A DNA stretch of 64,000 bases, taken from positions 11,718,001 to 11,782,000 of the forward strand of contig JBHGNT010000010.1 in assembly GCA_043228905.1 (NCBI GenBank), given 5' to 3'. Below the pieces are notes generated by a model. It ran no database searches. It was not told where the DNA came from and saw only the letters and a list, made by a program, of their open reading frames with translations. Below are positions 1,461-61,394 of this stretch, piece after piece. This DNA comes from Azolla caroliniana (taxonomy: Eukaryota; Plantae; Polypodiophyta). Within the stretch, counting starts at the first letter, position 1. The number at the start of each line of letters is the position of its first letter. The position numbers and the translations under genes were made by a program.

Positions 1461-4400
1461 CAAGAAAGAAGAGTGCGTGGATTGCAAGGAGAAGCAACAT
1501 GTGTCACACCTAGTGGCGCATGTAAACTAGTACTACCCGATAAGAAGCACAAGCGCCGGATACAAGAATTCGAGAAGATGTTGAAAGAAGAGAACATAAT
1601 AGAAGAAGGAGAGTTTGTGACTCATATTATGGAAGAAGCCTCATTTAACGACACCATCGGCGAAATCGAGGACGTCGTGGACTTGAGCTATCTTCACAAC
1701 CAACGCGTGATTTCGGTTAACTCCGTCAACATGTACGCTATCATCGATGAATACCATCGTGGCATCTCGATGAAGGAAGCTGACATCAACACGAAATATA
1801 AAACGGTGGATAAGAAGATCAAGCCAGTTGCGGTTCCACTACCGGAAGATAGCTGGCAAAAGATGAAGGAAGTCGCTAACGATCCAAGCTTAAGAGATCC
1901 GAAGAAGATAGGTCATGTCTTCACCAAAGAGACGAAGGGGAAGCTACGAGTTGGAAAGGAGGATTTCCTTCTCCCCGAAGAGGACTGAATGTTTCACGAT
2001 ATGCTTGAGAGACATGGGAAGGCTTTCGCATTCTTCCCACGAGAAATTGGATGCGTCGACCCAAAGGTTATAGAGCCGATGGTGATCTTCACGGTGCCTC
2101 ATGTGCCTTGGAATTTGAAACCGATACCGGTTCCGAGAGCACACCGTCCGAAGCTGATCGAGCTCTTAAAGGAGAAGGTGAGTATGGGAATTCTAGAACC
2201 GTCGAATGCTCCTTATTCCAATAGGTGGTTCATGGTGCCGAAGAAGAATGGATCATTGCGATTCATCCAAGATCTTCAACCCGTCAACAAGGTGACAATT
2301 CGAAATGCCGGAATCGGTCCGAGCGTGGACGAATTTGCCGAAGCGTTTGCGGGCCGGTCCATCTACTCCATTGGCGATCTCTACTCCGGATATGACCAAT
2401 TCCAATTGGCGATCGACAGTCACGACATTACAACCATGAGGACTCCGATCGGGCTTGTGCGGATGTGTACCTTACCCCAAGGCGCAACGAACTCGGTGGC
2501 TCATATGGTGAATGCCATGAATAAAGTCTTGAAGGATTGCATTCCGGACATCACGATGCCATTCTTGGATGATATTCCGATAAAAGGATGTTTGGATGAG
2601 GAGAAAGATGAATCGAAAGATAAGGAAGATTGTAGAAAGTTCGTTGCGGATCATATGAAAGATTGCGAGAAGGTGCTTCAAAGGCTCGAAGATGCGAATT
2701 TGACATTTTCGGGAGAAAAATCCGCATTCGGGCAACCGGAGATCTTGGTGGTAGGTCACTTGTGTGGAGCATATGGCCGGAAGCCCTCGCCATCCAAAGT
2801 GAACGCAATCCAAGACATGAAAGAAGAATGCGAAAACCAAACGGAGGTTCGAAGGTTCCTTGGAGCGTGCGCGTTTTATCATATATGGATTCCTCACTAC
2901 GCTCATGTCGCCGAACCGTTATATGGACTACTAAAGAAAAGAATAAAGTTCGAATGGCGAGACGAGCACACAAAGGCTATGCAAAGATTAAAGAAACTGC
3001 TTCTTGAAGCTCCGGCACTAAGGAACGCCGACTATGCCGAAGGGAAACCAATTTATGTGACCGTAGATACGAGCCCAACTGGAACCGGGTGGGTCATCAA
3101 TCAAGAAGGCGAAGATAATGCGCGATATGCCATCCGGTTCGGAGCAAAGGTTCTCAGCGAACGGCAACAAAGATATGCCCAAGTCAAGCGGGAACTTTGG
3201 GGTATTGTGTCGGCAGTGAAGACGGACAAAGATTACCTGATCGGGTCAGAAGTGATAATAGAGACAGATTGTCTCCCAATTCTCGGAATGGTCTCGGGAT
3301 GTGCGACCCCAGATCTTGCTATGCTAAGGTGGATCGCCTACATCAAGTCTTTAAACCCAGAGATCCGTCACATTGCAGGGAAGAAGAACGCCATGGCTGA
3401 CATGCTGTCGAGGGCAAGATTTTCAAATGGAAGTAACATGATTTCGGAAGATGAAGATGTCGCCCTCGACTTCTTCAAGATGGCTCGATTGTCGGCGAAA
3501 GATCAGGACACACAAACCCTCCACGCCTTCAACGAGAACGAGTACGAAGGGGAGTGGTTACTCATCGGTAGATTCCTAAGAACATTGACGACAGATGCTT
3601 CGTTGACAAAGGAGGAGGCCCTACGAATCCGAAAGAAAGCTTACCAATACTTCTTGAAGGGAGGATTCCTTTGGCGACATCCAAAAAGAAGGACAGGAGT
3701 ACCACGTCCAGTGGTGGTAAAGAAAGAAGAGCAAGAGACGCTGATGACCGAATTCCACGAGAGTGCTTGGGTAGGTCATAGAGGAACATGGGCGACATTC
3801 GAAAAGTTGAAGGAGAAGTACTGGTGGCCAAGCATGTACAAAGATGTACTCCATTTCGTGTCCACATGCGAAACTTGCCAAATATATTCAAATATACGTC
3901 ATCGTGATGAGTTAAAGCCGACATACCCACTCACCATACACTTCAAATGGATGGTGGATCTGGTCTCGATGCCAATGGGAGTGGGACAAATGAAGTACTT
4001 AGCGCTAGCAAGGGAAGACTTGACAAATCAAGTGGAAGGACGAGCCTTGACAAATAAGACGACTTCAGCCGTTTGCAAATTTCTACTTGAAGATGTTGTT
4101 TGCCGATATGGATGTGTAGGGAAGATAGTGGCCAACCGAGGGGAGTTGGACGCGCACGAAGCAACGGAGCTCTTCGAAAGACTAGGCGTGAAGCTCTCCC
4201 TCACGACTGCCTACAATCCGGAAGCAAATGGGAAGATAGAGCGAGGGCATGGACCTATCGTTAAAGCCATCGTACGGGCATGCAACGGTCGAGTCGGGAA
4301 TTGTCCACAACTATTACCCTATGCCTTGTGGGCCGATAGAACGACACATAGCTCGGTGACAGGGTATAGGCCGACGGAGCTTATGTATGGACAAAAGCCG

Positions 4401-4892
4401 ATTATGCCCATCGAAAGGACGATCGCCTCATGGGTAGCGATACCGTGGGAGAACGAGATGAGCCGAGAAGAGTTATTAGCGGCGCGGATAAGGCAACTTG
4501 AAAGAAGACCTGAAGATTTAGAAAAAGCGCGAAAGATGATGAAGGCAGCCCGAGTAAAGAACAAGGTTCGGTTCGACAACACGCATCGACTTCGTCCCAA
4601 GAAGATTGAAGAAGGGGATTGGGTTTTGGTTTACGACAACACCCTTCACAATCAACACAGTACAACAAGGAAGTTCGCAAGAAGATGGTTCGGGCCGTAT
4701 GTGGTGACAAGTGCCAACGATAATGCCACATACCACCTTGCGGAACTAGACGGATCAAGATTGGCCGTACCCATTGCGGGAAAAAGAGTAAAGATTTTCA
4801 AGAAAAGACAAGACAAGGATCCTGACCTCGATTACCTCGACGATGAACATAATAGGGCGGATGTAAATGAAGACATGGAGGAATCTAATTGA
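1404..4892 (+). pseudogene. pol: Pol (RT-RNase H-integrase) in the -1 frame, with one premature TGA at 1986-1988
   Basis: RT (GDLYSGYDQ, PQGATNS, FLDD), RH (VDTSPTG, ETDC), IN (H..H..C..C zinc finger, AYNPEANGKIER, WFGPY). ORFs 1473-1988 and 1989-4892 are in the same frame. Confidence 0.93.
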
Positions 4893-4964: not shown

Positions 4965-6139
4965 TGTCGTGAAGATTTTCGGCAATAGTGTGAAAATCCC
5001 ATAAAATGTACGAAATCGAGTATGAATCACGTAATACAATAATTGTGAAGATAACATTTTAAACAAATTTAATATCTAAGTACAAAATGATGGAGGTTTC
5101 GAATGCAGTTTATTACACGAGAAACGGACAACTAAATGTCAAGATATTAGGGTATAAAGTTTTTGAAAGGAAAAGAGAAAATTGTGAGATATCCCACATA
5201 GGCACGACAAATACGGCTCTCATCATATATAATGTAGAGCAAAAGATATTATCTTTGCGTCTATGTGTGGAGCATAGAGAGTTCAAGGTAACTTGAACTA
5301 AGAGTGGAGGTGGGCTAGCTACTCGTAAAGGGTTTTGGTTGGCCAAAACCGGACCGGCGATGGAACTGGTGATCCGGCGGCAATCCGGCATCCAGCGAGG
5401 CACCGGTAACCGATGACATTCGCCGCCGGCACCGGTATCCGGCGCCGGTCAGACGACGGAATCCGGCGAGGCACCGGTAATCGACGGCATCTGGCACCGG
5501 CACCGGTAAGACGACGGCATCCGGCGAGGTACCGGTAACCGACGACATCTGGCGGCGGCACCGGTATCCGGCGACTAGATAAATAAATATATAAATATAT
5601 ATACATATATACAAGGAGGGCAAGTAAGGATTCGAACCTTGCACCTCCAAGTTAGGAGTCAATTGGCTTACCATTAAGCCATGCTATTTAGTTCAAATTA
5701 TATTTCTATCATTGTACTTTTACATGTAAATTCTCATACATGAGAGCTAAAATGAGTGACATGGTTATCATGCACCACATGTAATACATAAGCGCCAAAT
5801 GGCAAACATGCAATTTATGCATGTCTTGTACCCTCACATGCATCATATGCATGAGAGCATCTATAAAAGAAGGAAGGGAGAGGAGAAAAAAAACTTTTTG
5901 TTTTTATGATGAAATTAAGAAGAAGAAATTCGTTATCAAATTGATGGTGTAACTTGTTTCTTAAATCCAAAGATAAAAGTTCAATCAATCTCTCTCAATC
6001 ATTTAATCTCAACTTCTCTCTTTCCCAATCAATCTTAAGTACTTTCTCGCCAAAGCTTATACCAACTTTGAATCCTTCCGGTCCAGAACCCCGGCGGTTC
6101 CGCCTCACAATCCGCGTGTAATGACGGATCTTCACGACA
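4965..6139 (+). repeat. 3' LTR (1175 bp)
   Basis: 12-bp terminal inverted repeat TGTCGTGAAGAT...ATCTTCACGACA, preceded by a G-rich PPT; contains CCGG-rich tandem repeats at about 5350-5575. Confidence 0.92.
5616..5686 (-). other. tRNA-like Pol III type-2 promoter module inside the LTR
   Basis: Minus strand TGGCTTAATGGTAAGC (A box with D-stem GCTT/AAGC) ... AAGGTTCGAATCCTT (B box/T-arm) at tRNA spacing; no acceptor stem. Confidence 0.7.
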
Positions 6140-6887
6140 GCGTCACCGATCGCACTTCGCCAGAAGCTCGGAGAGAGCCGGGTCGGGACCAGCCCTCGTA
6201 ATGAAGCATAAGGCTAACCGAATGGGAGTATTCGATTCGAAGTCGGAAAAAGTTTGGTATGTGGATTCCGGAGCTTCAAACCGCATGACGAACCACCATG
6301 AGTGGTTCTCCTTTCTCGAGAAGCCGAAGAAGCTGGGGGTAACCGAAACCGAAGATGACACCCCACATCCCAACGAGCACATCGAAGATGTCCCATTGAC
6401 CCATGTCGACCAGAAAGGGGTCATGAGGAACGTCCGGCATATCTGGATGATCACCAAGAACATGGTGTAAGACTGCTAGATCGTAGATCAAGGAATGCAG
6501 GTCTGATTTACTCACTGTGGTTGCTTCATCGAGGAGGAAGGCTGGATCATCGCGCAAGGGCGCCGGGATGGAAGAATGTTCCTTCTCGAAACCAATGATG
6601 GAGGCACCGTGATGTTTGTGAAAGGGCAGAAGGTCAAGTCGGACATCGACCTGTGGCATAAGGGTTAAAGCACGCTACGGTGTACCAAAAAAAGTATTGT
6701 TTTTGGCTTGTGAAAGGGCAGAAGGTCAAGTCGGACATCGACCCGGTTGCTTCATTGAGGAGGAAGGCTGGATCATCGCACAAGGGCGCCGGGATGGAAG
6801 AATTTTCCTTCTCGAAACCAATGATGTAGGCATCACGATGTTTGTGAAAGGGCAGAAGGTCAAGTCGGACATCGACCTGTGGCATAA
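6140..6887 (+). pseudogene. Ty1/copia pol fragment (protease, GAG-pre-integrase), part 1; includes a local duplication
   Basis: WYVDSGASNRMT and DIDLWHK motifs; continues at 28612 (KRIGHINF). Confidence 0.88.
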
Positions 6888-16972: not shown

Positions 16973-17089
16973 AATTTTAACTGTTAATATATTGTAGAAA
17001 CCTTGTAGAATGACCAGTGATCTTCAATCTCAGATCTTCATATGTAAGTTCACAAGTTATCCTAATTAGGGATGACAAATTCATCAATA

Positions 17090-17750: not shown

Positions 17751-17768
17751 TTCTTCTCTTCACTATAA

Positions 17769-17937
17769 CAACTATTATACAAAGTTGCGACGGTCCGCCC
17801 ACATGTATGCTTTAGTAAAAGATGCACCCACCACCATAATCTATGTTGAGGCCATTATCGCAATCAAGTACACTATGACTCAAAAAAAGCACAAGGTTAA
17901 GGGAAGTAAACTGTTTACAAGGTCCCTCAAGAGGTAA
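17769..17937 (+). pseudogene. Diverged duplicate of the transposase C-terminal segment
   Basis: NYYTKL...APTTIIY...KHKVKG matches NYYAKL...APTTIIY...KHKIKG at 16763-16925. Confidence 0.8.
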
Positions 17938-19058: not shown

Positions 19059-22000
19059 TGTTAGGATTTCGGTCCCTCCGGATGGGATATGAGTACCCAG
19101 CAATGGAAGACCCAGTGAGAACCGGATGATGAGTACCCGGCAAGGAAGACCCGGTGAGAACCTCTCACCGAATGAAGGGACATATATGTAAATATGTTCC
19201 AGAGATCCCACTAGGGCTACATTTGTAAATAGTCCTAATTTCATATTAGTATAAATATGACCTAGGGAAAACAGAGTGTTGTGTGTATCATAGAGTGTGT
19301 TGTCATTATTTTGTATAGTGTTATTGGTGTAACTGTTGTACAGAGAAAGAGAGAGAGAGAGACAGTGTGAGTCTCTATTGTAACCGCCGCCAGGCGAAGA
19401 TTGTCAGCACGAGGTCGTCGCCTCTATGTTCCCCTGTTGTATTCCTATTGGACATAGTGATAGCTTGGAGTTTGTGGACTCCCGTGTTTTTTCCCGTTTA
19501 AGGTTTTCCACATTAACATCATGTGCATTCTCTTCTGTTTGTGTACCTACTTCCATTTCTCATCTTTCTGTGTTTGATTATCATTGAAGTGACCTAAGTC
19601 TTGGTTGTGGCCGACGATTATTCTGCAAGTTCCTTTCAATCTGGTATCAGATCAAAACGACACAGAAAAATGGAAGATTCGTTGGGAAGCATGTTCAAGC
19701 TCACCAGCTCCAACTACTCAGTGTGGAAGTCAAAGATGAGGGACATGCTCGTGGTTAAAGATCTCTGGTTGCCGGTTCAGTTCGGGGACAACAATGACGT
19801 ACATACGATGCTTCATTGACATGAGCCTGTACAACAACTTCAATGAGGAGAGTAAGGCTCATGAGCTCTGGGAGAAGATTGACATTATGTTTCAGAACAA
19901 AAATGTTGTTAATCAGATTTCGGTATTGCGGAAGCTAGTGCGGCTCCGGTACCAAGATGGCTCCAGCATGGTGGAGCACATGAATGCCTTCCAGGGGCTG
20001 ATTCACCAGGCAACATCGTTGGAAGTACCTTTCGCCGATGAGGTACTAGCATTAGTCCTGCTCGGTTCCCTCCCGGATAGCTGGGAGACATTAGTTGTCA
20101 CTTTGGGCAATGCCGGGTCGGAAGGAAAACAATTGTCCCTAGCAAGAGTCAAGTCAAGCTTGCTAGATGAGGAGGCGTGTTGGAAAAACAAGGATACGAT
20201 CTCCGACTCCAAAGCGCTCCTTACCAAATCGGAACGTGGAAGATTAAGGAACCGTGGTCCCCAGAACCGGGAAAAATCAGGGACACGGTCAAAGTCAAGG
20301 GGGAGGCCTACTTGCTTCTATTGCGGCAAGCCTGGACACTTCCAAAAGAACAGTCGGCATTTCCGGGAAGAGAAGGAAACCGACAGTACCAACTCGAAGT
20401 GGTCACCGGACCGGAATGGTAAAGACCAAAGGGGACTGGACCGGATGGGAACGACGGCAATCGCAGCAAGTGAAGAGGAGTTGATGCTCATCACCGAGGA
20501 GAGTGAGTTGAACCTTGCTGGCGACGAGACAACATGGGTTGTCGATTCCGGAGTGTCGTTCCACCTGACCTCGAACCGGAAATGCTGACAACACCAACCG
20601 GATGCAAATTGTTACTGAAGGATGTCTGACACGTTCGGGAGGTTCGATTGAACCTGATATCAATCGGTCGGCTAGATGATGAAGGCTACATAGGTAGCAT
20701 CCGGAACGGTGTTATGAAGTTCACCAAGGGGAGCCTGATAGTGGCTCGAGCCCGGAAAGTTAACACATTGTACTTAATGAATGCCCAGTTATGCCGGGAA
20801 GAAGTGAACGTCGCATCTGACACTGCCGGTGAGCTGTGGCACAAGAGACTATGTCACATGAGCGAGAAGGGAATGAGGAGGCTTGCCGATGACAACCTCA
20901 TTCTGGTAAAGGACGTGCATCTTGAGAGGTGCACCGACTGCTTGGCTGGTAAGCAAAACCGGACCTGCTTCCAATCAAGGCCACCGATGAGACGTAATGC
21001 ACCACTGGAGCTGGTGCATACCGATGTGTGTCAAGTAGACACAAAGTCACATGCTGGAGCACAGTACTTGGTGATGTTCATAGATGACCACAACCGGAAG
21101 TTGTGGGCCACACCGTTGAAGACGAAGGATCGGGTGTTATCCGTCTTCAAGGAGCTCCACGTGAGAGTGGAAAGAGAAACCGGCCGGAAGCTGAAGGCGG
21201 TTCAAGCAGATAACGGAGGCGAATACCGGGGGCAGTTTGAGGAGTATTTCCGCTCGAATGGCATCCGGCTCGAATTTACTGTGCTGAAGAAGCCGGAACT
21301 CAATGGGCTGGCCGAGAGGATAAACTGGACCATAATGGAGAGGGTCCGGAGTATGCTAGCACATGCTAAACTACTCAAGACGATTTGGGTTGAGCCGATG
21401 TCGACAACGACGTATGTGATAAACAGATCACCCTCAGTACCCTTGGATGGAGACCCGCTGTATAGAGTGTGGACCGGTAAGGAAGTGTCTTACCGGCATC
21501 TGAAGGTGTTCGGGTGTCTCACTTACGTGCATGTTGCAAAGGATCGGAGAGCAAAGTTGGATCCAAAGTCCAGGCCTTGAGTTCGGCTACTGAGTGTGGG
21601 ATTTGGTTAACAAGAAGGTTTTCCGGAGTCGAGATATTATCTTCATGGAGGACAAGACCCTTGCCGACTGGGAGTCAGAGAAGAAGATAATGAACTCTGA
21701 GTCAATCGGTAAGGATCGATTCGATGAGATTCGGACCTACCCGGCTAAGAGTTGGTTGAACTCGAAGAACCAGCCGGCTACGGTGAGGATACCGAACCAG
21801 CAGAAGAAGAAGAGGAGGAAGCTGAAATCGGAACCGGCCAAGATCCCGAATCGGATTCGGATGAAGAACAGACACACGAGCCGGTTACTGAAAGCTGAAG
21901 TCACAGATATCCTCTCAGAGAGAGAAGGCCCCCACAGAGATTTTTGGATGTAGAACATGTGTTGTTGACTGATGAGGGGGAGCCGGAAAGCTTCAAACAA

Positions 22001-24166: not shown

Positions 24167-24263
24167 ATAATACCAGCATCAATACCAATCTCAATTAACA
24201 TACAAGGTTAAGGTTCACACTGCTGCCTATTGTTACATCGGCGTGATCCTCTACTTCTGTAGA

Positions 24264-25830: not shown

Positions 25831-26869
25831 GTAGCATGTTTAGTACTACAAAAACTATACACCAACATGTAAATTTAGTTACGATGAATGCACAAGAACT
25901 AAACGACATAAATATCGATGCAACATATAGTATATGGAGCGAAACCAATACTAAACCATGAATTTTCTACTTTCTGGTATGAATTATGACCTAAACCAAT
26001 ACTAAAGCAACTATTAAATGGAATTAGAAAATACTAAAAGACATAATAGCAGTATCACATACCAGAGGAGTGAACTTTGAAACCCATAGCTAAGTACCAT
26101 TCAGCTCCAATCGTATTTTACAGTCCATACATGTATTTACTTTCTCAAAGTGGTACTTAGCACATAGCGTATGATATGTGTGCAAACACAGTGTAATCAC
26201 AACATCCATAGCCTCGAGCTTGAATCCAAGGCCACATAATACACATATGCACTTGGAGACATAGACTACCACATAATAGCTAAAGGAGAAAAATATAAAC
26301 CATAGAAGGTAAAAGGAGAGATATCCTCTTAGGCATCCTCAGACTTCAAGCCAGTGTTTGTACTGGAGGACTCTCTATAATGTGATGATTGGTGACGAGT
26401 AAAGTCTTCCTAGTCAACTTCAATGTCACTTGAACTTCACATGCAAAAACACATGTGCTTCACCCTTTCTTTGGTGTGTGTCTATTTACTTTCTTTGATG
26501 GGGGGTCCAAGTTCTTTCCTTTGTGGGTGTCATCACTTCATCTTTGACTAGTGCCTTCCTCGTGGGTGTCTTCTTTGTCAATTTTCTAGTTCTCACTCTT
26601 CTTCTAAAAAAGCTTCCACAACACAGTATTAACTCCCTTGCATAGCTATAAACTAGTACTTACTTCACACATCAATATACATAGCAAAATACCATTCCTA
26701 AATCACACAGGAAATTACCACACTATAAATATGTCTAGACAACAATACTAAATCAACAAGAACAAGAAGAATAACAACAAGACAACAACTTTTCAACATA
26801 GCAGTACTAAGTCAAGCGTCCCCCTTTCCAACAAGAAGAAGAAGAAGCAAAGCAGATTCAAGCATATAT

Positions 26870-31151: not shown

Positions 31152-34100
31152 TGTGAATGTTAATGTGCGGAAGCGTCAGACAGAACCGGCTCTGCCGAAT
31201 AGCAACAAAAAATGAGATGAAGGTTTAATGGAAAAACTAAAAACACAGAGGAGACAGAGAGAGTAGAACATACAACTATATTCAAAAAATTAACTCTAAA
31301 ACTCTATACATACAACGTGCTAAACAACAGTATTTATACAAGTCCATAAAGGACTCATAGAAGTACTGATAGGTACTTCAATGCTCACACGTGCGACTGA
31401 CACTAACTATGAGACAATGATTACCTAGTACTCTAGGCTACTATTAGGATTCCGGTTCCCGCTCGAATCCGGCTCTCCGATCCGGCCGGTTGTTTCCAGA
31501 TACCGATCCGGCTCAAGCTTGTTCACCCGATCCGGATCTGGTTGAGCTTGCTCGCTCAACACTCCCCCTCAAGCTCAACTTGAGGTTGGATCGTGCTGTT
31601 AGTGTCCGCGCCAGCCGGTTCTTCTACCCGTCTCCTTCTGGCGTTGCTCCGCCTTGCTCGTGTTCCTCGTCCGATCCGGTCTTGTTTGTCGTGACCCTTC
31701 TGGTTCTGTGCACTTTGACCTCCTTGGTCGGCTTGTTTGTTCAACAGGCCCATTTCAGCTCCTTTGCTACTACGACTCCGGCACTTGTTGACCCGTCGGT
31801 TCCTTCGTGTTGGCCTCGACTTTCGGTGCGTCCGTGTCCGCTTGGCCTTTAGTTGATCCGGCTTCCCCGAATCTTGAACCGAATCGGTTTCCTTCGATTC
31901 GTTCCAGCTCTTGTCCGAGTCGGTGTTCTCCAACTCGTCTTCCGGTTTCAAGCCCTTCACCACACCGAACCACGTCCAAGTCTTGGCCATTTTCGTCTGG
32001 TCGGCTCTGTCCTTCTTGACTCTGCCGCTGCTGCCGCTTGTTCTAACCTTTTTGGATATGCCGACTCCTTCGGTTGGCTCGTCCGATCGGCTCAGTCCTG
32101 TGCCATCCGTTCCCTTTCCTTTTCTCCCCCTCAAGTGCGGCACGTCGAGGTGCTGAACACCAAGCATTTCGGTGAAGTGCTACAACTTGTCCGATCCGAG
32201 CGGTGTCGTGTGAATCTTCACATACTATGTAAAATATAATGAAATAAGTATTTTAGATTAGATTAGTAGCTTGTTATAGAAAGATGGATGTTTGAGAAGA
32301 AAGGGAAATTAGAACTATGATTTATCCCACATAGATAAGAAGTTTGACAAGAAAGGGAAAATTAGGACTATGATTTATCCCACATAGATAGGAAACTTAA
32401 GGCATTCGCTATATAAGTACCTTGAGATCGCTCATTTTTTCATTTGTGTTTAGAGCACTTTGGCCACTTTGTCTAGAAGGATGAATGTGGCTAAGTTCCC
32501 AAAACCGGCTGGCAATAAAATGGAACCGGCCGGTAATGGGAACCAAACCAGAACCGGCCGGCAAGCAAACTAGAACCGAAACTAGCAAGCAAACTGGAAC
32601 TGGCCGGCAAGCAAAATCGGAAACGGGCCAGCAAGCAAAATCGGAAATCGGCCTGCAAGCAAAATTGGAAACCGGCCGGCAAGCAAACCGAAACCGAAAC
32701 CGTCCAGCAAGCAAACTAGAAGCGGTCGGCGATGGATTCAACGATCAGGTGGAACCGGCTACCGGACGAGATTGGATCATGCAACGAACTAAAGTAAAGT
32801 GAAGAAAACTAAAGTAAAGGCCATGTGGACACAAGCAACTAAAGTTGGAGTGCATGCATAAAGTAAAGGTGATGTGGAAGGTGTGCAACAAAAGGTGGAG
32901 ATCATGCAAAAAGTAATAAATAAAAAAACGTTATGTGGAATGCATGTAAGTGTATGGGGGAGAATAAGGAAAAATCCATCAATCAAGAAGGGGGCTATCA
33001 CTCATAATTCCTAATTTTCATACGGGGGAAGGAAGCTATCTCTCAAGAAAACCATAATTTCCATACAGAAGCAATCTCTCTAAAAATCCTAAATTCCTTA
33101 GAAAATCCATCTTACTCATAACCCTAATTTTCCATACGGAAGCTATTCAACTCATAAAACCATAATCTCTTATCAAAGCCAATAACCCTAAATCTCTATG
33201 GAATCCATATCTTAGTTTCTTCTAATCTATTATTCTAGTAATCTCCTTAAGATAAAACTTTTGTAATCCCAATCTTGGGATTAATTGTAATCTTTCCTTC
33301 TACTTGTTAATGAAATTTGTTAATCTTTCTCATTTCGGTTAATTCTTAGTACATAAATACACAAATTTGATATCCTCTAGTCAAAGGCCCTGGGGTCTTG
33401 CCTCAACGTTCATGTATCCTCATCGTATTTTTGCGACAGCGGTTTGGTGAAGATATCGGCAATCTACCGATCCGTCTGAACATACCAAAGTTCTACTTTA
33501 CCGCTCAAAACCCGCTCACGCACAAAGTGATAGTGGACTTCTATGTGCTTCGTCCGAGCATGGAACATGGGGTTCTTGGCAAGCTGAATGCTGCTCATAT
33601 TGTCACAATAGAGCAGGATCGGGGTCAGTACCTCAATCCGTAGGTCTTGCAGCAGTCGTCGAAGCCAGATGGCTTCACAAGTGGCATTGGTAGCGCCCCC
33701 GTACTCAGCCTTAGTGCTCAACAAAGCCGCTATTGGCTGCTTTTTGCTCCTCCACGCAACAGTCGCGCTACCTCGAGAAAACATGTAACCGGAGGTGGAT
33801 CAACGATCCGATACATCTCCAGCCCAATCGGCATCGGTATATCCGACTAGCTTCCCAGCTATACCGTGTCGGTATAATAGTCCTCGATCCTTCGTGCCGC
33901 TAACATACCGGAGTATCCGATTTGCGCACTGAAGGTGCTCGATGGTCAGCCTTTGCATGAACTGGTTGATCACTCCGACCAGGTAATTGAGGTTGGGTCG
34001 AGTGATTGTCAAGTAACTTAGGGTTTCGACGATTTGTCGGAACCGTTTCTCATCGCAAGCCGGTCTGGAGTTGGGACAGAGCTTCTGGTTCCGGTCCAGG

Positions 34101-51743: not shown

Positions 51744-53349
51744 TGTTAAGATTTTGGTCCCTCCGGATGGGATGATGAAGGCCCGGTGAGAACCGGATGA
51801 TGAGTACCCGGCAAGGAAGACCCGGTGAGAACCACTCACCGGATGAAGGGACATAGATGTCAATATGTTTTTGTTAGCCCATTGTGGCTATATTTGTAAA
51901 TAGCCCGAAGTCATATTAGTATAAAAATGACCTAGGGAAAACACGATTATTGTGGTTGTCATTATTTTTTGTAGAGTGTTATTGGTGTAAGTGTTGTACA
52001 GAGCTTAGTAGAGAGAGATATAGAGACAGAGACAAAGTGAGTATCTGCTGTAACCTCCGTCAGGCGAAGATTGTGAGCACGAGGTCATTGCCTCTATGTT
52101 CCCCTGTTGTATTCCTCTCGACATAGTGATAGTTTGGAGTCTGTGGGCTCCCGTGGTTTTTCCCTCTCAGGGTTTTCCACGTTAATATCTTGTGTACTCT
52201 CTTGTTTACACTGTTTTGTGTATACGTACATCTATCTCCACATTCCCAATTCTGTGTTTGTAATTCTCAAAGAAGTGATGGAAGACTCGGTTGTGGTTGA
52301 GCATTATTCCGCATATTCTTTTCAATCTGGTATCAGAGCGAAACGACACAGAAAATGGAAGATTCATTTGGCGGGCATGTTCAAGCTCACCGGCTCCAAC
52401 TACTTAGTCTGGAAGTCGAAGATGAGGGACATGCTAGTGGTTAAAGATCTTTGGTTGTCAGTTCAGTTCGGGGACATGAGACCGGAGAAGATCGATGCCA
52501 CAGTGTGGGAGGTAATGCACATGAAGACAACGGTATAAATCCAGTGTTTCATCGACATGAGCTCGTTTGCCAATTTCAATGAAGAGAGCAAGGCTCATGA
52601 GCTATGGGAGAAGATCAGCATTATGTTTCAGAACAAAAATGTTGTTAATCGGGTATCGGTATTCCGGAAGCTAGTAAGACTCCGGTACCAAGATGGCTCC
52701 AGCATGGTGGAGCACATGAATGCCTTCTAGGGACTGATTCACCAGGCAACATCGTTGGAAGTACCTCTCGCCGATGAGGTATTAGCATTGCTCCTGCTTG
52801 GTTCCCTCCCAGATAGTTGGGAGACGTTAGTTATCACTTTGGGCGACGTCGGGCCGGAAGGAAAACAGTTATCCCTAGCAAGAGTCAAGTCGAGCTTGCT
52901 AAATGAGGAGGCTTGTCGAAAAGACAAGGACACAAGCTCCAACTCGAAAGTGCTCCTTAACGAATCAGAATGCGGAAGACAATGGAACCGGAGTCCCCAG
53001 AACCGGGAAAAGTCGGGGACACGGTCAAAGTCAAGGGGAAGGCCCACTTGCTTCTACTGTGGGAAGCCGGGGGCACTTCAAGAAGAACTGTCGGCATTTC
53101 CGGAAAGACAAGGAAACCGACGGTACCGATTCGAAGCGGTCACCGGACCGGGACGGTAAAGACCGGAGGGGATCAGACTGGAAGGGAATGACGGTGTCGT
53201 AGTGTAGGTTGCACACTATGTGGAAATTATATTTTTGTCCCTCCGGATAGAGAATGGAGTGCTCGGTGAGAACCGGAAGAAAACGGCATACCGGCAAGGA
53301 AGAGCCGGATAAAGAGACATAAATGTAAAAGAAAAAAAAGAAATACTCA

Positions 53350-53420
53350 ATGCGCAGGGCGTGATTCGAACTCTACACCTCCACGTTGACAAACCCCAAC
53401 CTTACCATTACATTAACTTA
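53350..53420 (-). other. tRNA-like A/B-box module in the LTR (second copy at about 59795-59865)
   Basis: Minus strand TAATGTAATGGTAAG ... GGAGGTGTAGAGTTCGAATC, followed by an oligo-T run; homologous to 5616-5686. Confidence 0.62.
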
Positions 53421-53951
53421 TCTTAAGTGTTTTAAATATAGATTTAATATGTATAAGACCTTTATTTATGCATACCTTTATTAAAAGGTAAATCGTGTAT
53501 TTTTTTAATATATGAAAAAGACGAGACACCAAAAATAACTCATGCACATCTAGCGTGCATGAGCCCTATACTTAGGAAATAAAAAAGCATCACATGCACA
53601 TTTAGTGGACATGAACACTTTTTGTAAAAAAAGCATGAAGCCATGCTTAGCTCTTCCTTCCTTATATAAGGAGGAGAGAAATATGTAAAGGGTTGTTGAT
53701 TATTTGGGATTAAGGATTAATCAATACATAAATTATTCGTGGGATTCACGATTTATACATCTACTTCTCTCTTAACACCCTAAGTACCAATTAATATAGT
53801 ATACTCGTGTGATTCACGAGTTTCTTATCTTTCTCTTTGCTATTTACTCATAATTAATCTCTATCTCACGAACTTCTTTCTCCTAGTCCAAGACCTCTGT
53901 GGTTCCCACCCGACTCACGCAACGATCCGGAGCCGAAAGGCACGACACAGT

Positions 53952-53969
53952 TGGTGAACCCGACGTGAA
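53952..53969 (+). promoter_or_regulatory. Primer binding site, tRNA-Trp
   Basis: TGGTGAACCCGACGTGAA, complementary to the plant tRNA-Trp 3' end (..TTCACGTCGGGTTCACCA) as I recall it. Confidence 0.85.
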
Positions 53970-53985
53970 GACGGGTGGCAAGGAG

Positions 53986-56025
53986 ATGGAGGCTCAACAA
54001 GCTAACAATATGATGGCGATGTTCGAACGGATGCTTCAAGAACAACGCACGATGTCGGAGATTTCGGCATCAGTAGAGCGGCTCGTGCAACGCAACGGGC
54101 AATTTAATGGTAAGGATGTGTCGCGATATTTGCAGGACTACAAGGCGGAGATGCTCCGGTGCCGGGCTTCGGAAGGACTGCAAGTGACATCCTTTAACCG
54201 GGTGGCGACCGACGGGCTTCAAGGGAGTATCCACGGGTTGCAACAACAAAATCCGACGTGGGAAGCATTCGTAGAGGCGTTAAAGACCACGTTTGCCATC
54301 GAGGACTCCTCCAAGGCAACGCGGAGGGGATTCGAGGATTGGGTGGAAACGTCAGGTAAGGGGCTGAAGGTCCTCGAAGTGTTTTCGACATTCGAAAGTC
54401 GGTTCGGGAGGTTGTCCGCGAGAGATCAAACTATTCTTGCACCGGACAAAGTCATCATGTTTTTGCGAGCTGTGGACGTCCGGGACCGGAAAGATCTCGG
54501 AGTGCTTCTTGAGGACACGACCACCGAAAGCGGCCTCACCGAAACATGGGAAAGCGTGCGGGATATCGTCGCGCGGTACACGAAGAGGGGGCAATGGCTT
54601 GCCAACGAAGAAAAGAGGGTTTCGGAACCGATTCCGAAACCGAGAACGGGACTGGAAGACCATCAACCGAGGGCTCGGGAGATTACGGCCGAGAAGGGAG
54701 TCGACGCGTCTACGGTGGAGCAGCTGCTGAAGGAGATGGAGAATCTAAAGATCGCGATGGTGAAGAAGTCGGATGACCACCCCACAAGCTCCAAATATAC
54801 GGATCGACGGTGCATATGGTGCGATAGCGCCGAACACGATCGGAGGGATTGCGACGACCATAAGGAGGCGCTACGACGGGATCTCATCTACTACGAGGGA
54901 AACCGGATTCATTCGATGGACTCTCGGAAGCCACTCCGACCGAACTTCCGGAAAGGCGGCATGAAGAAGGTGCTCGAGGAGGAGTTAGCGGCAAGAAGCA
55001 ACTATGCGACAACCGCGGGAATATGTGTCGGGGAGTCATCGGGAGCGAAGGCGTCTTTCTGGCCGGAGGTGCTAGGAAACACCGAGAAAACCGACTCCAA
55101 CGATATCCGAAACACCGCGGAAGGCGTCCGGGAAGCTACGGGATGGGAGTGCCCTGTCGACAAGAATAGCATATACGCCCTGTGTCAATTACATGAGGTG
55201 TATGTGGACGAGAAACGACGGCGCACGGAGGATGCGGCCGGACCATCGAAGATACCGGAAAGCTGGAACTCCGGAGGTAAGGGAAAAGAAAAGGCGACTC
55301 CGGCATTCAAGCTCGCCTCGGACATAGAACAACAAACCGACTTGAAAAGAGTGTTCGAGGAAAGAATCTTGGATAGCCGGGTAGATTTTTCGCTGCGGGA
55401 ACTACTCGGAATAGCGAAGAAGGAGTTTCACGATCTTCTCGTGGATCTCGTGAAAAGGAAGAGACAAAGTACGGAGGAAAATGCTCCAAGGGTGAATGCA
55501 AATACCGTTTCAATGAACGACACCGAAGTGGAAGGCGAAATTCCGAACTCCCACTATACAAGGCCACACTGGGCACGTGCGACTACGGAGACTCCGGTCC
55601 GAATCGGCAACATCAAAGAACCCGTGCTAGCATTGATTGATCACGGATCGGAGATCAACTTGATGTCCAAGGAGTTCTACCGAAAGGGGAAGTGGCCTAT
55701 AAACACCAACCATGGATGGAAGATTCGGGCAGCCACGAAAACGACAGAAGACCTATTTGCTACTTGTCCGGATGTGACGGTAAAGATCGGGGATGTCGAA
55801 ATTGACCAAAATTTCTTTGTGCAGGATGAGGTTTCACATTCTGTCATCCTCGGCCAACCCTTTATCACGGCTTCACGGATGGAGACGAAGGTGCTCGATA
55901 GTGGTGCGGCTTTTGCGCGAATTCGGAGCCAAAACGGAGGGAAATCCGTCCAATTCCTAACAGTGCCGGCAAATCACGAAAGGAACAAGAGGGAACTCTT
56001 GTCCCAAGTGAGAATGGATTTTTAA
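53986..56025 (+). CDS. gag: ORF1 Gag-protease
   Basis: First ATG after the PBS; FNGKDVSRYL, zinc knuckle CIWCDSAEHDRRDC, protease LIDHGSEINLM/ILGQPF. Confidence 0.93.
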   Translation: MEAQQANNMMAMFERMLQEQRTMSEISASVERLVQRNGQFNGKDVSRYLQDYKAEMLRCRASEGLQVTSFNRVATDGLQGSIHGLQQQNPTWEAFVEALKTTFAIEDSSKATRRGFEDWVETSGKGLKVLEVFSTFESRFGRLSARDQTILAPDKVIMFLRAVDVRDRKDLGVLLEDTTTESGLTETWESVRDIVARYTKRGQWLANEEKRVSEPIPKPRTGLEDHQPRAREITAEKGVDASTVEQLLKEMENLKIAMVKKSDDHPTSSKYTDRRCIWCDSAEHDRRDCDDHKEALRRDLIYYEGNRIHSMDSRKPLRPNFRKGGMKKVLEEELAARSNYATTAGICVGESSGAKASFWPEVLGNTEKTDSNDIRNTAEGVREATGWECPVDKNSIYALCQLHEVYVDEKRRRTEDAAGPSKIPESWNSGGKGKEKATPAFKLASDIEQQTDLKRVFEERILDSRVDFSLRELLGIAKKEFHDLLVDLVKRKRQSTEENAPRVNANTVSMNDTEVEGEIPNSHYTRPHWARATTETPVRIGNIKEPVLALIDHGSEINLMSKEFYRKGKWPINTNHGWKIRAATKTTEDLFATCPDVTVKIGDVEIDQNFFVQDEVSHSVILGQPFITASRMETKVLDSGAAFARIRSQNGGKSVQFLTVPANHERNKRELLSQVRMDF

Positions 56026-56079
56026 AGCGGACTGTTGCGGAGTGGGGAAGTGATAGTCCGAGAAGCCCTGATACCCCAC
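56016..56079 (+). promoter_or_regulatory. Predicted -1 frameshift signal (GGATTTT plus pseudoknot)
   Basis: Slippery site 56016-56022; stem 56028-56038/56050-56060; GTGGGG 56042-56047 can pair with CCCCAC 56074-56079. Confidence 0.82.
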
Positions 56080-59000
56080 ACAGGAAGAAAACTCTCGGAG
56101 CAAAACAAGTACGAATCGGCCCGGATGGGGCATCTACGTACACGGCCGTAACCAGAGGAATGAAGAAACAATACCGACAAGTGGAGGATAAGTTATGGTC
56201 GGCATCAATAATAAAAGAAGACGAAGAAATCGTGGGAGTGATCGAGGAAGTGTTCTATGGGAATACACTACAACGGCTTGAAGAGCTTGCGGAAGATAAA
56301 AGCCAAGGGAACCGGGTAGTCCCGGTGGAATCGTTCGAGATGTACGAGATCGTTGCGAAAATGGGGCCGGATGCGCTCCGCAAAGAAGAAGCAATGGTAA
56401 GTACGAAATACAAGACCGTGGAGAAGAAGGTGAAACCGGCCGCGGGACCACTACCTGCCGATAGCGAACAAAAGAAGAAAGAAGTCTCAGGAGATCCGAC
56501 ACTTCGGAAGTCCGTGGATATCGGACATGCCTTCACAGATGAGACCCGGAAGAAACTTCGGATCGGTGGAGGTGGGTTCCTCTTACAAGAAGAAGAAAAA
56601 CAGTTTCGAGAGATGTTGGAGCAACATGGCAAAGCATTCGCGTTCACATCGAGGGAGATCGGATGCATTGATCCAAAGATAGTGGAGCCGATGGTGATTT
56701 TCACGATTGATCATGTACCGTGGAACCTGAAGCCGATTCCGGTGCCACGGGCGCATATTCCGAAAGTCATCGACTTGCTCAAGGAGAAGGTGGCGATGGG
56801 GATTCTAGAGCCATCAAGTGCTCCATACTCAAATCGATGGTTTACGGTTCCGAAGAAGAATGGGTCACTCCGATTCATCCAAGACTTGCAACTGGTGAAC
56901 AAGGTCACGATCCGGAACTCAGGAGTCGGTCCGATAGTGGACGAATTCGCGGAAGCTTTTGCCGGACGTGCGATATACTCCATCGGGGACCTATACTCGG
57001 GGTATGACCAATTCCAACTAGCCGTGGAGAGCCGAGACATCACTACCATGCGGACACCGATAGGACTAGTTCGAATGTGCACACTACCACAAGGAGCGAC
57101 AAACTCGGTTGCACATATGATGAACGCGATGAACAAGGTGCTTCGAGATTGCATCCCGGAGATAACGATGCCGTTTCTAGATGACATTCCGATGAAAGGA
57201 TGCGCGGTGGAAGAAAAAGATGAGACTATGGATGATCGGGGATGCCGAAAGTTCGTGGTCGACCATATTCATGATTGCGAGAAAGTGTTGCGAAAGCTAG
57301 AAGATGTGCACCTAACACTTTCCGGGGAGAAATCGGCATTCGGGCAAGAAGAAATATTGGTGGTCGGACATCTATGTGGACCCTACGGCCGAAGACCGTC
57401 ACCAACAAAGATCGATGCGATTCAAGCTATGAAGGAAGTATGTGAGTCAACATCGGAAGTCCGAAGGTTTCTGGGTGCGTGTGCATTCTATCACATATGG
57501 ATTCCGCACTATGCACATATAGCGGACCCGCTCTATCACTTGTTGCGGAAAGGTAAGAAATTCGAGTGGAAACCGGAACACACTAAAGCCATGAGGAAGC
57601 TCAAGAAGACACTATGGAGGGCGGAATCACTTAAGAAGCCAAGCTACGAGCGGCCAATCATAGTAACGGTTGATACAAGTCCAACCGGTATCGGGTGGGT
57701 CATCAATCAAGCCGACTCGGATGGTTCGCGGTATCCGATCCGATTTGGAGCAAAGGTCCTCAACGAAAGGCAACGCGGATATGCACAAGTCAAAAGAGAA
57801 TTGTGGGGAGTCGTGTCGGCGATAAAATCGGATCGGGATTATTTGATCGGAGCTGAAGTGGTGATCGAGACGGATTGTCTTCCGATACTCGGGATGATGC
57901 GGTGTTGTACGATACCGGATGTGGCTATGCTAAGGTGGATTGCATATGTCAAGTCACTTAATCCGGAGGTTCGACACATCTCGGGGAAGGACAACGCGGT
58001 AGCGGACATGTTATCGAGGGCGCGGTTTGAAGACGACATAACCGAATCAGATAATGAAGAAGTTTCCGAAGACTACTTCACGTCAGAACACATATGCCGA
58101 GTGAACGTGATCCGAGAATTCCGGGAAGAAGAATACGAGGGGGAAACCTTGATGATCGGGAAGATGCTACAAGAGGTCGAGGATTCAACCAATGATAAAG
58201 AAAGGAGAGCCGAGATCCGAAGGAAGAAGAGGCAAGTCCAAAAGTTCTTCTTGGAAAACGGTTTAATATGGAGGACGCCGAAAAGACCGGATGGGATACC
58301 ACTTCGAGTAGTCGGGACGAAAGAGCAACGAAACCGGATAATGTCCGAGTTCCACGAATCCAATTGGGCTGGACATCGAGGAACATGGGCAACTTTTGTG
58401 AAAATCAAGCAAAGATATTGGTGGAAGAACATGTATAAAGATGTCGCGGAGTTCACAGAAAGCTGCGAGAAATGTCAAGTCTACTCCGGGGTCCGACACC
58501 GAGATGAGCTGCATCCGACATTCTCACCGACAATCAACTTCAAGTGGATGGTCGACATTGTAGCTATGCCGACCGGGATTGGACAAAAGAAATACTTGGT
58601 GTTAGCTCAAGAAGATCTCACAAACCAAGTTGAAGGTCGAGCGCTTCGGAGGAAAACGTGTGCCGCGGTGTGCCAATTTCTTTTGGAAGAAGTGTTTTGT
58701 AGGTACGGCTGCGTAGGACAAGTGATTGCGGACCGGGGAGAACTCGACTCGGACAAAGCTAGGGGATTCTTCGCCAAACATGGAGTTCGGTTAACGTTGA
58801 CAACGGCCTACAATCCGGAGGCCAACGGGAAGATCGAACGAGGACATAGTCCGATCGTGAAAGCACTTGCGAAGGCATGCGACGGAAGGGTGAAGGATTG
58901 GCCACAAATGCTTCCGTATGCACTATGGGCGGATCGGACGACGCATAGCTCCGTGACCGGTTACATGCCGGCAGAACTCATGACCGGACAAGCACCGGTA

Positions 59001-59627
59001 ATGCCAACGGAAACCGCAATCGCGACATGGACAATACTACCGTGGAAGGAAGAGATGAGCCGGGAAGAACTACTAGCGGTCCGGATACGACAACTGGAGG
59101 GAAGACCGAAAGATGTAGCGGAGGCGTCACGTCGACAACAAGAAGCACGGTTCCGGAACAAAAGCCGGTTCGACACAAAGCACCGACTACGACCGAGGAG
59201 GATTGAAGAAGGAGATTGGGTGATCGTTTATGATAGTAGCTTGGACCATCAACATACAACGATGCGGAAATTCGCGAAAAGGTGGTTCGGGCCGTACGAG
59301 GTTCGGAAGGTCTTCGACAACGGGACGTACCGACTGTCCGAGTTGGATGGAACAATACTACGAGTGCCTATAGCCGGGAAGCGGGTGAAGATTTTCAAGA
59401 AGCGGACCGACGACAAACCTTATGTGATCCAAGTCGAGGCCGACAACGAGGAGCAATCGGACGAAGACCACAATGATGCGGGAAGCGAAGAAAGTGGATT
59501 ACAACTCATAGTCGACATAAGGGGAGAATCGGAGGAAGCTTCGGATGAAGACGGATACGAAGAATCAAGAACTTCGGCACATACCGGAGGATGTGCGGGT
59601 TTGGAGGGGGCGAGTGTCGTAGTGTAG
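56022..59627 (+). CDS. pol: ORF2 Pol (RT-RNase H-integrase), -1 frame
   Basis: Open from the slippery site to TAG 59625-59627 inside the 3' LTR; RT, RH and IN motifs are present; no chromodomain seen. Confidence 0.95.
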   Translation, partial: LKRTVAEWGSDSPRSPDTPHRKKTLGAKQVRIGPDGASTYTAVTRGMKKQYRQVEDKLWSASIIKEDEEIVGVIEEVFYGNTLQRLEELAEDKSQGNRVVPVESFEMYEIVAKMGPDALRKEEAMVSTKYKTVEKKVKPAAGPLPADSEQKKKEVSGDPTLRKSVDIGHAFTDETRKKLRIGGGGFLLQEEEKQFREMLEQHGKAFAFTSREIGCIDPKIVEPMVIFTIDHVPWNLKPIPVPRAHIPKVIDLLKEKVAMGILEPSSAPYSNRWFTVPKKNGSLRFIQDLQLVNKVTIRNSGVGPIVDEFAEAFAGRAIYSIGDLYSGYDQFQLAVESRDITTMRTPIGLVRMCTLPQGATNSVAHMMNAMNKVLRDCIPEITMPFLDDIPMKGCAVEEKDETMDDRGCRKFVVDHIHDCEKVLRKLEDVHLTLSGEKSAFGQEEILVVGHLCGPYGRRPSPTKIDAIQAMKEVCESTSEVRRFLGACAFYHIWIPHYAHIADPLYHLLRKGKKFEWKPEHTKAMRKLKKTLWRAESLKKPSYERPIIVTVDTSPTGIGWVINQADSDGSRYPIRFGAKVLNERQRGYAQVKRELWGVVSAIKSDRDYLIGAEVVIETDCLPILGMMRCCTIPDVAMLRWIAYVKSLNPEVRHISGKDNAVADMLSRARFEDDITESDNEEVSEDYFTSEHICRVNVIREFREEEYEGETLMIGKMLQEVEDSTNDKERRAEIRRKKRQVQKFFLENGLIWRTPKRPDGIPLRVVGTKEQRNRIMSEFHESNWAGHRGTWATFVKIKQRYWWKNMYKDVAEFTESCEKCQVYSGVRHRDELHPTFSPTINFKWMVDIVAMPTGIGQKKYLVLAQEDLTNQVEGRALRRKTCAAVCQFLLEEVFCRYGCVGQVIADRGELDSDKARGFFAKHGVRLTLTTAYNPEANGKIERGHSPIVKALAKACDGRVKDWPQMLPYALWADRTTHSSVTGYMPAELMTGQAPVMPTETAIATWTILPWKEEMSREELLAVRIRQLEGRPKDVAEASRRQQEARFRNKSRFDTKHRLRPRRIEEGDWVIVYDSSLDHQHTTMRKFAKRWFGPYEVRKVFDNGTYRLSELDGTILRVPIAGKRVKIFKKRTDDKPYVIQVEADNEEQSDEDHNDAGSEESGLQLIVDIRGESEEASDEDGYEESRTSAHTGGCAGLEGASVVV

Positions 59628-61394
59628 GTTGCACACTATGTGGAAATTATATTTTTGTCCCTCCGGATAGAGAATGGAGTGCTCGGTGAGAACCGGAAGA
59701 AAACGGCATACCGGCAAGGAAGAAAACGGCATACCGGCAAGGAAGAGCCGGATAAAGAGACATAAATGTAAAAAAAAAAAGGAAATACTCACTACTGCGC
59801 AGGGCATGATTCGAACTCTGCACCTCCACGTTAACAAACCCCAACCTTACCATTACATTAACTTATCTTAAGTGTTTTAAATATAGATTTAATATGTATA
59901 AGACCTTTATTTATGCATACCTTTATTAAAAGGTAAATCGTGTATTTTTTTAATATATGAAAAAGACGAGACACCAAAAATAACTCATGCACATCTAGCG
60001 TGCATGAGCCCTATACTTAGGAAATAAAAAAGCATCACATGCACATTTAGTGGACATGAACACTTTTTGTAAAAAAAGCATGAAGCCATGCTTAGCTCTT
60101 CCTTCCTTATATAAGGAGGAGAGAAATATGTAAAGGGTTGTTGATTATTTGGGATTAAGGATTAATCAATACATAAATTATTCGTGGGATTCACGATTTA
60201 TACATCTACTTCTCTCTTAACACCCTAAGTACCAATTAATATAGTATACTCGTGTGATTCACGAGTTTCTTATCTTTCTCTTTGCTATTTACTCATAATT
60301 AATCTCTATCTCACGAACTTCTTTCTCCTAGTCCAAGACCTCTGTGGTTCCCACCCGACTCACGCAACGATCCGGAGCCGAAAGGCACGACAACGGCAAT
60401 CGTGGCAAGTGAAGAAGAGTTGATGCTCATCACCGAGGAGAGTGAGTTGAACCTTGCCGGCGACGAGACAACGTGGGTTGTCGATTCCGAAGCGTCATTC
60501 CACCTTACCCCGGACCGGAAATGCTTCTCATCCTAACATGTTCGCATTCACAAGTGGAAGGATTGCGCATTCCACTTGTAGAGTCTTCTTGAAACTATCC
60601 AAATATACCCTCTCTACAAAAATTGGATGCACTATTATCACATGTTCCACAACTTGATTACAATTTGCAAATATAAAAATACATGATAGGTCTACGAGTG
60701 GAGATCATTAGAAATCATGCAAGTTTGGACGTGTTGATAAGTTAATGTAGGCACAATAAAGTTCAACAATGGCTTAATATGTCACTAATGTGCGACATGG
60801 GAAACACTAAGTTAAAGACTTATATTAATTTGGTAAGTTTTACAAAAATATGAGGTGTACTTGTATCCATACTAATAAAATGAGTTCTAATTTATACTTT
60901 GACCCATGCGTGCATGTATATAATGGTGGACAATGTAGGATAGTGCACTTTAGGATAATGTGATTGGAATAACTAACTTATTAAAGTATTCAATACTTGT
61001 ATTTAAAGTTGATCTAATCTATTCCTTAGTTTGGTCGTATGGGATCAAACCATATGTATATAATTGTGGACAATGTAAGACAGTGAACTTTAGGATAATG
61101 TGGTGGAAATAAGAAACCTATTAAGGCTTTCATACTTGTATTAAAAATTGATCTACTCTATTGCTTAGGTGATTCACACAGGGTCAAACTCCGAACGATA
61201 ACACTAGTGGAACTACAAGCGTATAAAAACATGCGGATAACGCTAGTGGAACCATTATCAACACACTACACAATCTAAGCAACAATGGAATAGAAACATA
61301 ATTGTTTTAACAATAGAAGACAAAGATCCATAATAACAACATGGACAGTCATGGCAACAGTTCTATGACCATGTTATGTTAAGGTAAACTTGGA

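What the first reader, a model, noticed from the sequence alone, without database searches (positions are those of the whole stretch)
32200..33442. A Gypsy lineage with 4-bp target duplications centred on CpG
Seen: the three TGTCG...CGACA insertions have target sites ACGG (53191-53194/60393-60396, confirmed against the uninterrupted paralogue near 20450), GCGG (32200-32203/33439-33442) and GCGT (6140-6143, right flank only). All are RCGK and all lie inside copia coding sequence. The other LTR elements with TSDs here have 5-bp TSDs (ATAAT, GAGCT, ATCCC, AATGG). Known: plant LTR elements usually make 5-bp TSDs. Inference: the integrase, which has no visible chromodomain, may prefer (methyl-)CpG and so target other TEs. 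n is only 3.
Basis: partly seen in the sequence, partly recalled or inferred. Interest (0 to 1): 0.72.

Follow-up and report, generated by a model that had tools for sequence, protein, structure and literature searches.

The report
Known Phygy retrotransposons inserting at CG
These plant jumping genes insert at CG and copy four bases of the target, a habit already published for the Phygy group to which they likely belong; the integrase likely reads the CG step itself, and a need for methylated CG is untested.

Summary
Of 92 independent insertions of three LTR families in this genome, 83 have a central CG. The other 9 read CA, and none reads anything else. Of 36 insertions with both ends, 21 have an exact 4-bp duplication, 35 differ by at most one base, and none has an exact 5-bp one. 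Neumann et al. 2019 list exactly this for the Phygy clade: 4-bp TSD (100%), NCGN, tRNA-Trp primer, no extra domain. The complete element matches these features; tree placement could not be tested. CG-rich DNA here is mostly transposon DNA, so the motif alone explains about half the nesting (61% to 74% to 88%). A residual excess of about 14 points remains, which selection, chromatin or methyl-CG could cause. VCGB is the foamy-virus VYRB rule narrowed to CG, and the integrase folds like foamy and Ty3 integrases with no reader domain. No earlier scan note on this motif was found.

The parts
32200..32203 (+). Left copy of 4-bp target duplication GCGG (family B solo LTR)
   Evidence: 4-bp overlap against uninterrupted paralogues L163 and L030
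32204..33438 (+). Solo LTR, family B, TGTCG...CGACA, inside the pol end of a minus-strand copia element
   Evidence: other family-B LTRs are followed by the tRNA-Trp PBS
33439..33442 (+). Right copy of GCGG
53191..53194 (+). Left copy of ACGG (family A full element)
53195..53947 (+). 5' LTR, family A; 99.3% identical to the 3' LTR over 752 aligned columns
53341..53420 (-). tRNA-like A-box/B-box module inside the LTR, antisense (approximate limits)
53952..53968 (+). Primer-binding site complementary to the 3' end of tRNA-Trp, 4 nt after the LTR
53986..56025 (+). ORF1: gag plus aspartic protease (DUF4100, weak Asp_protease_2)
55902..59627 (+). ORF2 (stop to stop), overlapping ORF1 in another frame: RT, RNase H, integrase
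58281..59624 (+). Integrase: H2C2 zinc domain, rve core, SH3-like strands, unstructured acidic tail; no chromodomain
59597..59614 (+). Purine-rich tract before the 3' LTR (PPT)
   Evidence: conserved in family-A copies
59615..60392 (+). 3' LTR, family A
60393..60396 (+). Right copy of ACGG
20454..20457 (+). Single ACGG at the matching, uninterrupted site of a paralogous copia element
1989..4889 (+). pol of the family C element; 68% amino-acid identity to family A pol
4965..6139 (+). 3' LTR, family C; its 5' LTR is L062 (G000:C10:11706604)
6140..6143 (+). Right copy of GCGT; left copy flanks L062

Best explanation
These are non-chromovirus Ty3/Gypsy retrotransposons, likely of the known Phygy clade, that duplicate 4 bp centred on CG, and their integrase likely selects the palindromic site VCGB by reading the target DNA itself. 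Shown: 4-bp duplication, central CG, avoidance of T at position 1 and A at position 4, Trp primer site, no chromodomain or other folded reader domain. Inferred by analogy to foamy virus: the intasome cuts the two strands 4 bp apart and kinks the target at the central pyrimidine-purine step, and base contacts narrow the general VYRB rule to CG. Shown: CG-rich DNA in this genome is mostly transposon DNA, so the rule alone steers insertions into other elements. Inferred: the remaining excess in repeats comes from loss of insertions in genic DNA or from chromatin, and the CA/TG variants are decay of methyl-C after insertion.
For: 83 of 92 central CG, 9 CA, 0 other; 0 of 36 two-ended insertions carry the same CA or TG on both sides; VCGB 78 of 83 against 46% of local NCGN sites, p 4e-21; no visible base preference beyond about two positions outside the duplication. 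Phygy in Neumann 2019: 4 bp (100%), NCGN, tRNA-Trp 81%, no extra domain. PFV consensus KWK-VYRB-MWM with a flexible central YR (PMC4176367 passage). Top Foldseek hits are PFV intasomes (E 7.6e-15) and then Ty3; residues 381-448 are unstructured. Pfam finds Chromo at E 1e-7 to 1e-15 in other gypsy elements of this genome but not in these integrases. Random VCGB sites are 74% in repeats against 61% for random positions. All 15 mismatched TSD pairs are C-to-T or G-to-A changes in CG or junction-made CHG context. Relatives at 71-80% RT identity share the CGACA end and Trp PBS, and the four LTR starts with a readable flank are VCGB.
Against: Insertions are more often in repeats (79 of 90, 88%) than motif-matched random sites (444 of 600, 74%); block-bootstrap difference 3 to 26 points. 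Two copia control families, also subject to selection, show no such excess (25 of 44, 57%). None of the 11 unclassified sites showed a host-gene domain; three had retroelement-type domains within 1.5 kb. The model is of modest quality (pLDDT 67, pTM 0.47; TM-score 0.28 to PFV over the whole chain) and identifies no base-reading residue. No tree with reference Phygy sequences was possible. The element (7198 bp) is shorter than the published Phygy range (7656-9968 bp).
Confidence: 0.7

Rival explanations
1. The integrase prefers or needs 5-methyl-CG at the kink, so the DNA mark itself steers insertion into silenced transposons without a chromodomain.
For: Residual excess in repeats beyond the motif (88% vs 74%). 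The choice of CG alone among YR steps. These sites are methylated at least after insertion. Moss TEs carry about 80% CG methylation (PMC9994747 passage). C methylation created strong in vitro target preferences for an alpha-retroviral integrase (review passage PMC11054761; the primary paper was not held). Phygy-labelled domains are enriched at Apopellia centromeres (PMC12885004 passage).
Against: No methylome is available, so nothing shows methylation before insertion. Flank CG density and GC equal those of random VCGB sites. No methyl-reader fold was seen. Strict sequence-specific Gypsy targets including CGCG exist in Drosophila (PMC5408687 passage), which has little CG methylation (recalled). 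Surviving insertions are filtered by selection.
Confidence: 0.18
2. Two layers: integrase reads VCGB, and a separate host tether (for example through the acidic tail) or chromatin state brings the complex to heterochromatic repeats.
For: Residual repeat excess not shared by the copia controls. An unstructured tail of about 68 residues is available for binding. Centromeric enrichment in Apopellia and frequent Phygy-in-Tcn1 nesting in P. patens are reported.
Against: The excess is modest, and the repeat call misses low-copy repeats (one search found retroelement domains near 3 of 11 unclassified sites). The tail was not examined for conserved motifs.
Confidence: 0.1
3. The CG pattern is chance or a boundary artefact of 5-bp duplications.
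For: Only n=3 in the window.
Against: 0 of 36 exact 5-bp and 21 of 36 exact 4-bp duplications; 83 of 92 CG. Empty paralogues overlap by 4 bp. Copia controls give exact 5-bp duplications at 8 of 9 single loci with both ends.
Confidence: 0.01

Closest known systems
Phygy clade of non-chromovirus Ty3/gypsy (Neumann et al. 2019, PMC6317226; passages and Additional file 5 read)
   Same: 4-bp TSD, NCGN target, tRNA-Trp PBS, no chromodomain, no aRH, coding region fills the interior
   Different: Motif resolved here as VCGB; the family A element is 7.2 kb, below the 7.7-10.0 kb range; the clade was defined from P. patens only, and the host here was not determined
Prototype foamy virus intasome (PMC4176367 passage; PDB 4e7k top fold hit)
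   Same: 4-bp duplication, V..B outer bases, central pyrimidine-purine step, related integrase fold
   Different: PFV accepts any YR and the bias is weak; here the centre is CG in effectively every case; a retrovirus, 20% identity
TatI (4-bp TSD, tRNA-Trp) and Selgy (4-bp TSD, tRNA-Ala) of Neumann 2019
   Same: 4-bp TSD, non-chromovirus; TatI shares the primer
   Different: TatI carries aRH (none found here); Selgy uses tRNA-Ala and averages 5 kb; no NCGN preference is listed for either
Drosophila errantiviruses, ZAM subgroup (PMC5408687 passages)
   Same: Sequence-specific Gypsy integration at a short palindrome containing CG
   Different: Target CGCG (central GC), AGT-type LTR ends, env gene
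Plant chromoviruses such as RLG1 of P. patens (PMC7466625 passages)
   Same: Accumulate in TE-rich regions
   Different: Use a chromodomain; Tcn1 clade makes 5-bp TSDs; no sequence motif

Membership tests
Phygy | Ty3/gypsy domain order PROT-RT-RH-INT | tested here: met
Phygy | 4-bp TSD | tested here: met
   21 of 36 exact, 35 of 36 within one mismatch, 0 of 36 at 5 bp
Phygy | NCGN target | tested here: met
   83 of 92; CG in at least one copy in 88 of 92
Phygy | tRNA-Trp primer-binding site | tested here: met
   PBS complement is the 3' end of 5 of 5 loci called tRNA-Trp by ARAGORN
Phygy | No chromodomain, no aRH, no extra ORF; coding region spans the interior | tested here: met
   Chromo detected in other gypsy elements as positive control
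Phygy | Length 7656-9968 bp | tested here: inconclusive
   Family A full elements are 7187-7199 bp (7 elements), slightly below; no uninterrupted full-length B or C element was measured; the range came from one species
Phygy | Monophyly with P. patens Phygy in RT-RH-INT trees | not testable with these tools
   The reference FASTA and element table were too large to read; no P. patens protein among the 120 listed of 263 homologues; nearest named hits are Riccia at up to about 70%
TatI | aRH domain | tested here: not met
   Only the RT_RNaseH/RT_RNaseH_2 region hits at E up to 0.1
Selgy | tRNA-Ala PBS | tested here: not met
   PBS is tRNA-Trp
Chromoviruses (including Galadriel, partly 4 bp) | Chromodomain on integrase | tested here: not met

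The most novel reading that the evidence does not exclude
Phygy integrase is a methyl-CG-directed integrase: it senses 5-methylcytosine at the kinked central step with its catalytic core, so DNA methylation itself, with no reader domain or host tether, sends new copies into silenced transposons.
Probability: 0.18. Interest if true: 0.72.

Novelty: new member of a known kind. Interest (0 to 1): 0.24.

Why it matters
The headline (4-bp, CG-centred TSD) is in print since 2019, so it adds little. What is added is small: the VCGB refinement, its match to the foamy-virus VYRB rule, and a measured split of nesting into a part explained by the motif and a residual part. The lineage is a good natural system to ask how an integrase becomes nearly absolute for one dinucleotide and whether methylation counts. 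If methyl-CG were read directly, it would be a new route to heterochromatin targeting. A whole-word search for NCGN with retrotransposon gave 2 papers, only one relevant; searches listed no study of the Phygy mechanism, judged from titles and abstract starts.

Tried and rejected
RCGK motif: rejected (33 of 83). 5-bp or 6-bp TSD: rejected (0 of 36 each). Specific aim at copia coding DNA: not supported. Extended palindrome: none evident by eye in 8 flanking positions each side, apart from a slight A excess just 5' of the site. Using TSD mismatches as proof of methylation before insertion: rejected, since they arise after duplication. Chromodomain or methyl-reader domain: none by Pfam or fold. 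Rfam scan of the family A LTR and PBS: one chance-level hit, nothing for the tRNA-like module. Names for three NCBI-sourced homologues: none given. Kitamura 1992 primary paper: not held. PMC3276498 and PMC8282616 passages added only that most Drosophila Gypsy families make 4-bp TSDs and that Phygy is a listed lineage. Search of earlier scan notes for this motif: none. Metagenome relatives were mostly contigs without both flanks, so no two-ended TSD could be scored there. Additional files 1 and 3 of PMC6317226 could not be read and may already contain the VCGB pattern.

Full report
Observation. The three target sites are at the stated coordinates. 32204-33438 is a solo LTR. 53195-60392 is a complete 7198-bp element with LTRs 99.3% identical over aligned columns. 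4965-6139 is a 3' LTR whose 5' partner lies 11.4 kb before the window and carries the same GCGT on its left. Uninterrupted paralogues overlap the flanks by exactly four bases for the first two. The three LTRs are separate families (A, B, C) with almost no alignable sequence beyond their ends; A and C pol are 68% identical.

Genome-wide test. Each LTR was searched in the own genome and 30 loci per family were fetched; these are the best-scoring of 40 scored out of 2664, 1371 and 3043 candidates, so young copies are favoured. Scanning all 190 loci then held gave 202 LTR ends, 134 facing host DNA. Six were dropped (two tandem junctions, one false end, one decayed internal end, two duplicates), leaving 128 ends and 92 insertions. 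Taking one copy per insertion, 83 have central CG, 9 CA and 0 other; local CG frequency is 5.4% per base (p 3e-94). By family: A 28 of 29, B 24 of 29, C 31 of 34. Of 36 two-ended insertions, 21 are exact 4-bp duplications, 35 are within one mismatch, and none is exact at 3, 5 or 6 bp. VCGB fits 78 of 83 against 46% of local NCGN sites; RCGK fits 33 of 83. Two copia control families show exact 5-bp duplications at 8 of 9 single loci with both ends (read).

Mismatches. In 15 pairs the two copies differ. Eleven have CG in one copy and CA or TG in the other. Four differ only at an outer base, and one of the eleven has both. Every outer change is C-to-T just before the LTR's TG or G-to-A just after its CA, that is in a CHG site made by the junction. 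This shows CG and CHG decay typical of methylation after insertion (inference), and implies that the original centre was CG in all 36. It says nothing about methylation before insertion.

Anatomy. ORF1 encodes gag and protease; ORF2 overlaps it in another frame and encodes RT, RNase H and integrase. The PBS complements the 3' end of genes that ARAGORN calls tRNA-Trp (5 of 5 loci). Pfam finds no chromodomain or aRH, while Chromo is readily found in other gypsy elements of this genome. An AlphaFold model of the integrase (62 sequences, pLDDT 67, pTM 0.47) shows zinc domain, core, helical linker, SH3-like strands and an unstructured 68-residue tail; its best PDB matches are foamy-virus intasomes and then Ty3, at low whole-chain TM-score. 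The nearest named homologues are Riccia liverwort proteins at up to about 70%. Unnamed relatives at 71-80% share the CGACA end and Trp PBS; four LTR starts with a readable flank are VCGB. The host was not determined; an earlier scan note calls it likely a fern (e1-10587443, untested).

Is it known? Yes. Neumann et al. 2019 (PMC6317226; passages and Additional file 5 read) state that Phygy elements prefer NCGN and list 4 bp (100%), tRNA-Trp 81%, 7656-9968 bp, no extra domain. PMC6911290 (passages) reports 4-bp TSDs as commonest for Phygy, GC-rich centres in 4-bp TSDs and Phygy nested in Tcn1. PMC12885004 (passages) reports Phygy in a liverwort, enriched at centromeres. All testable features are met except length, which is slightly short; tree placement could not be tested because the reference files were unreadable.

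Does it target other transposons? Forty 10-kb background stretches were taken at round coordinates that I chose across 22 contigs. CpG observed/expected ranges from 0.29 to 1.09; three blocks with host-gene domains and no retroelement hit lie at 0.29-0.48, and retroelement-rich blocks mostly at 0.7-1.1 (184 of 228 long ORFs were scanned there, one more). One-sided 400-bp flanks were classed with a local protein library and blastn. In repeats: 79 of 90 insertion sites (2 of 92 had flanks too short), 444 of 600 random VCGB sites, 367 of 600 random positions, and 25 of 44 copia control sites (3 of 47 dropped as duplicate or internal). So the motif accounts for about half of the rise from 61% to 88%. 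The rest is 14 points (block bootstrap 3 to 26). Copia coding DNA holds 31 of 90 sites against 135 of 600 (difference -1 to +25 points). Flank CG density equals that of random VCGB sites. The 11 unclassified sites showed no host-gene domain, and three had retroelement-type domains nearby. The repeat call misses low-copy families, so all fractions are lower bounds.

Mechanism. The foamy-virus consensus is VYRB within a 4-bp duplication, explained by bending at the central YR step plus contacts to abutting bases (PMC4176367 passage). VCGB is that rule narrowed to CG. I commit to direct read-out of sequence and shape by the integrase (0.7), with nesting as a by-product of where CG is and of selection. 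The cut geometry and motif are shown; bending, base contacts and selection are inferred. Methyl-CG preference stays possible (0.18): there is in vitro precedent for an alpha-retroviral integrase (review passage), and the residual excess is not seen in copia controls. Against it, no reader domain is seen and Drosophila Gypsy elements reach strict targets such as CGCG (PMC5408687 passages) in a genome with little CG methylation (recalled).

Verdict. Real, strong and already described for Phygy; these are new members of that kind. Interest 0.24.

Noticed in passing
window 53341-53420 and 5616-5690 (minus strand); LTR copies in L001-L030 and L061-L090: An antisense tRNA-like module with A-box and B-box lies inside two otherwise unalignable LTR families: B-box in 24 of 30 family A and 22 of 29 family C LTRs, chance-level in family B. 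It resembles a Pol III promoter kept in the LTR, as with the 5S piece of Cassandra elements (recalled). One literature search found nothing; Rfam gave no match.
   Followed up: partly
window 53948-53951; family C loci such as L062; L196-L275: The spacer between LTR end and PBS is 4 nt in families A (20 of 20) and B (6 of 6) but 8 nt in C (9 of 9), and ranges from about 1 to 8 nt in relatives, implying variable overhangs for integrase to trim.
   Followed up: partly
window 55902-56025: Protease sits in the gag frame, and RT-RH-INT begins in an overlapping minus-one frame; Neumann 2019 lists the Phygy arrangement as not determined.
   Followed up: no
G000:C8:17.80-17.82 Mb, C16:4.99-5.11 Mb, C5:10.11 Mb, C300, C1178: Tandem or clustered matches to the tRNA-Trp 3' end, about 1.2 kb apart on C8 (62 matches in all).
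   Followed up: no
L151-L190: Blocks with host genes are CpG-poor (0.29-0.48) and retroelement blocks CpG-rich (up to 1.09), the reverse of what long-term TE methylation alone would predict.
   Followed up: partly
window 8338-9305 and 13140-14107: The long repeat is composite: a 441-bp copia LTR preceded in both copies by about 525 bp of another repeat, suggesting capture of flanking DNA or a local duplication.
   Followed up: no
L025, L036, L072: Tandem or abnormal LTR junctions in these families, for example an LTR starting directly after a PBS.
   Followed up: no
window 14400-18820, 24187-25870, 61350-61930: Several tandem arrays with periods 72, 65, 81, 84 and 51 bp.
   Followed up: no
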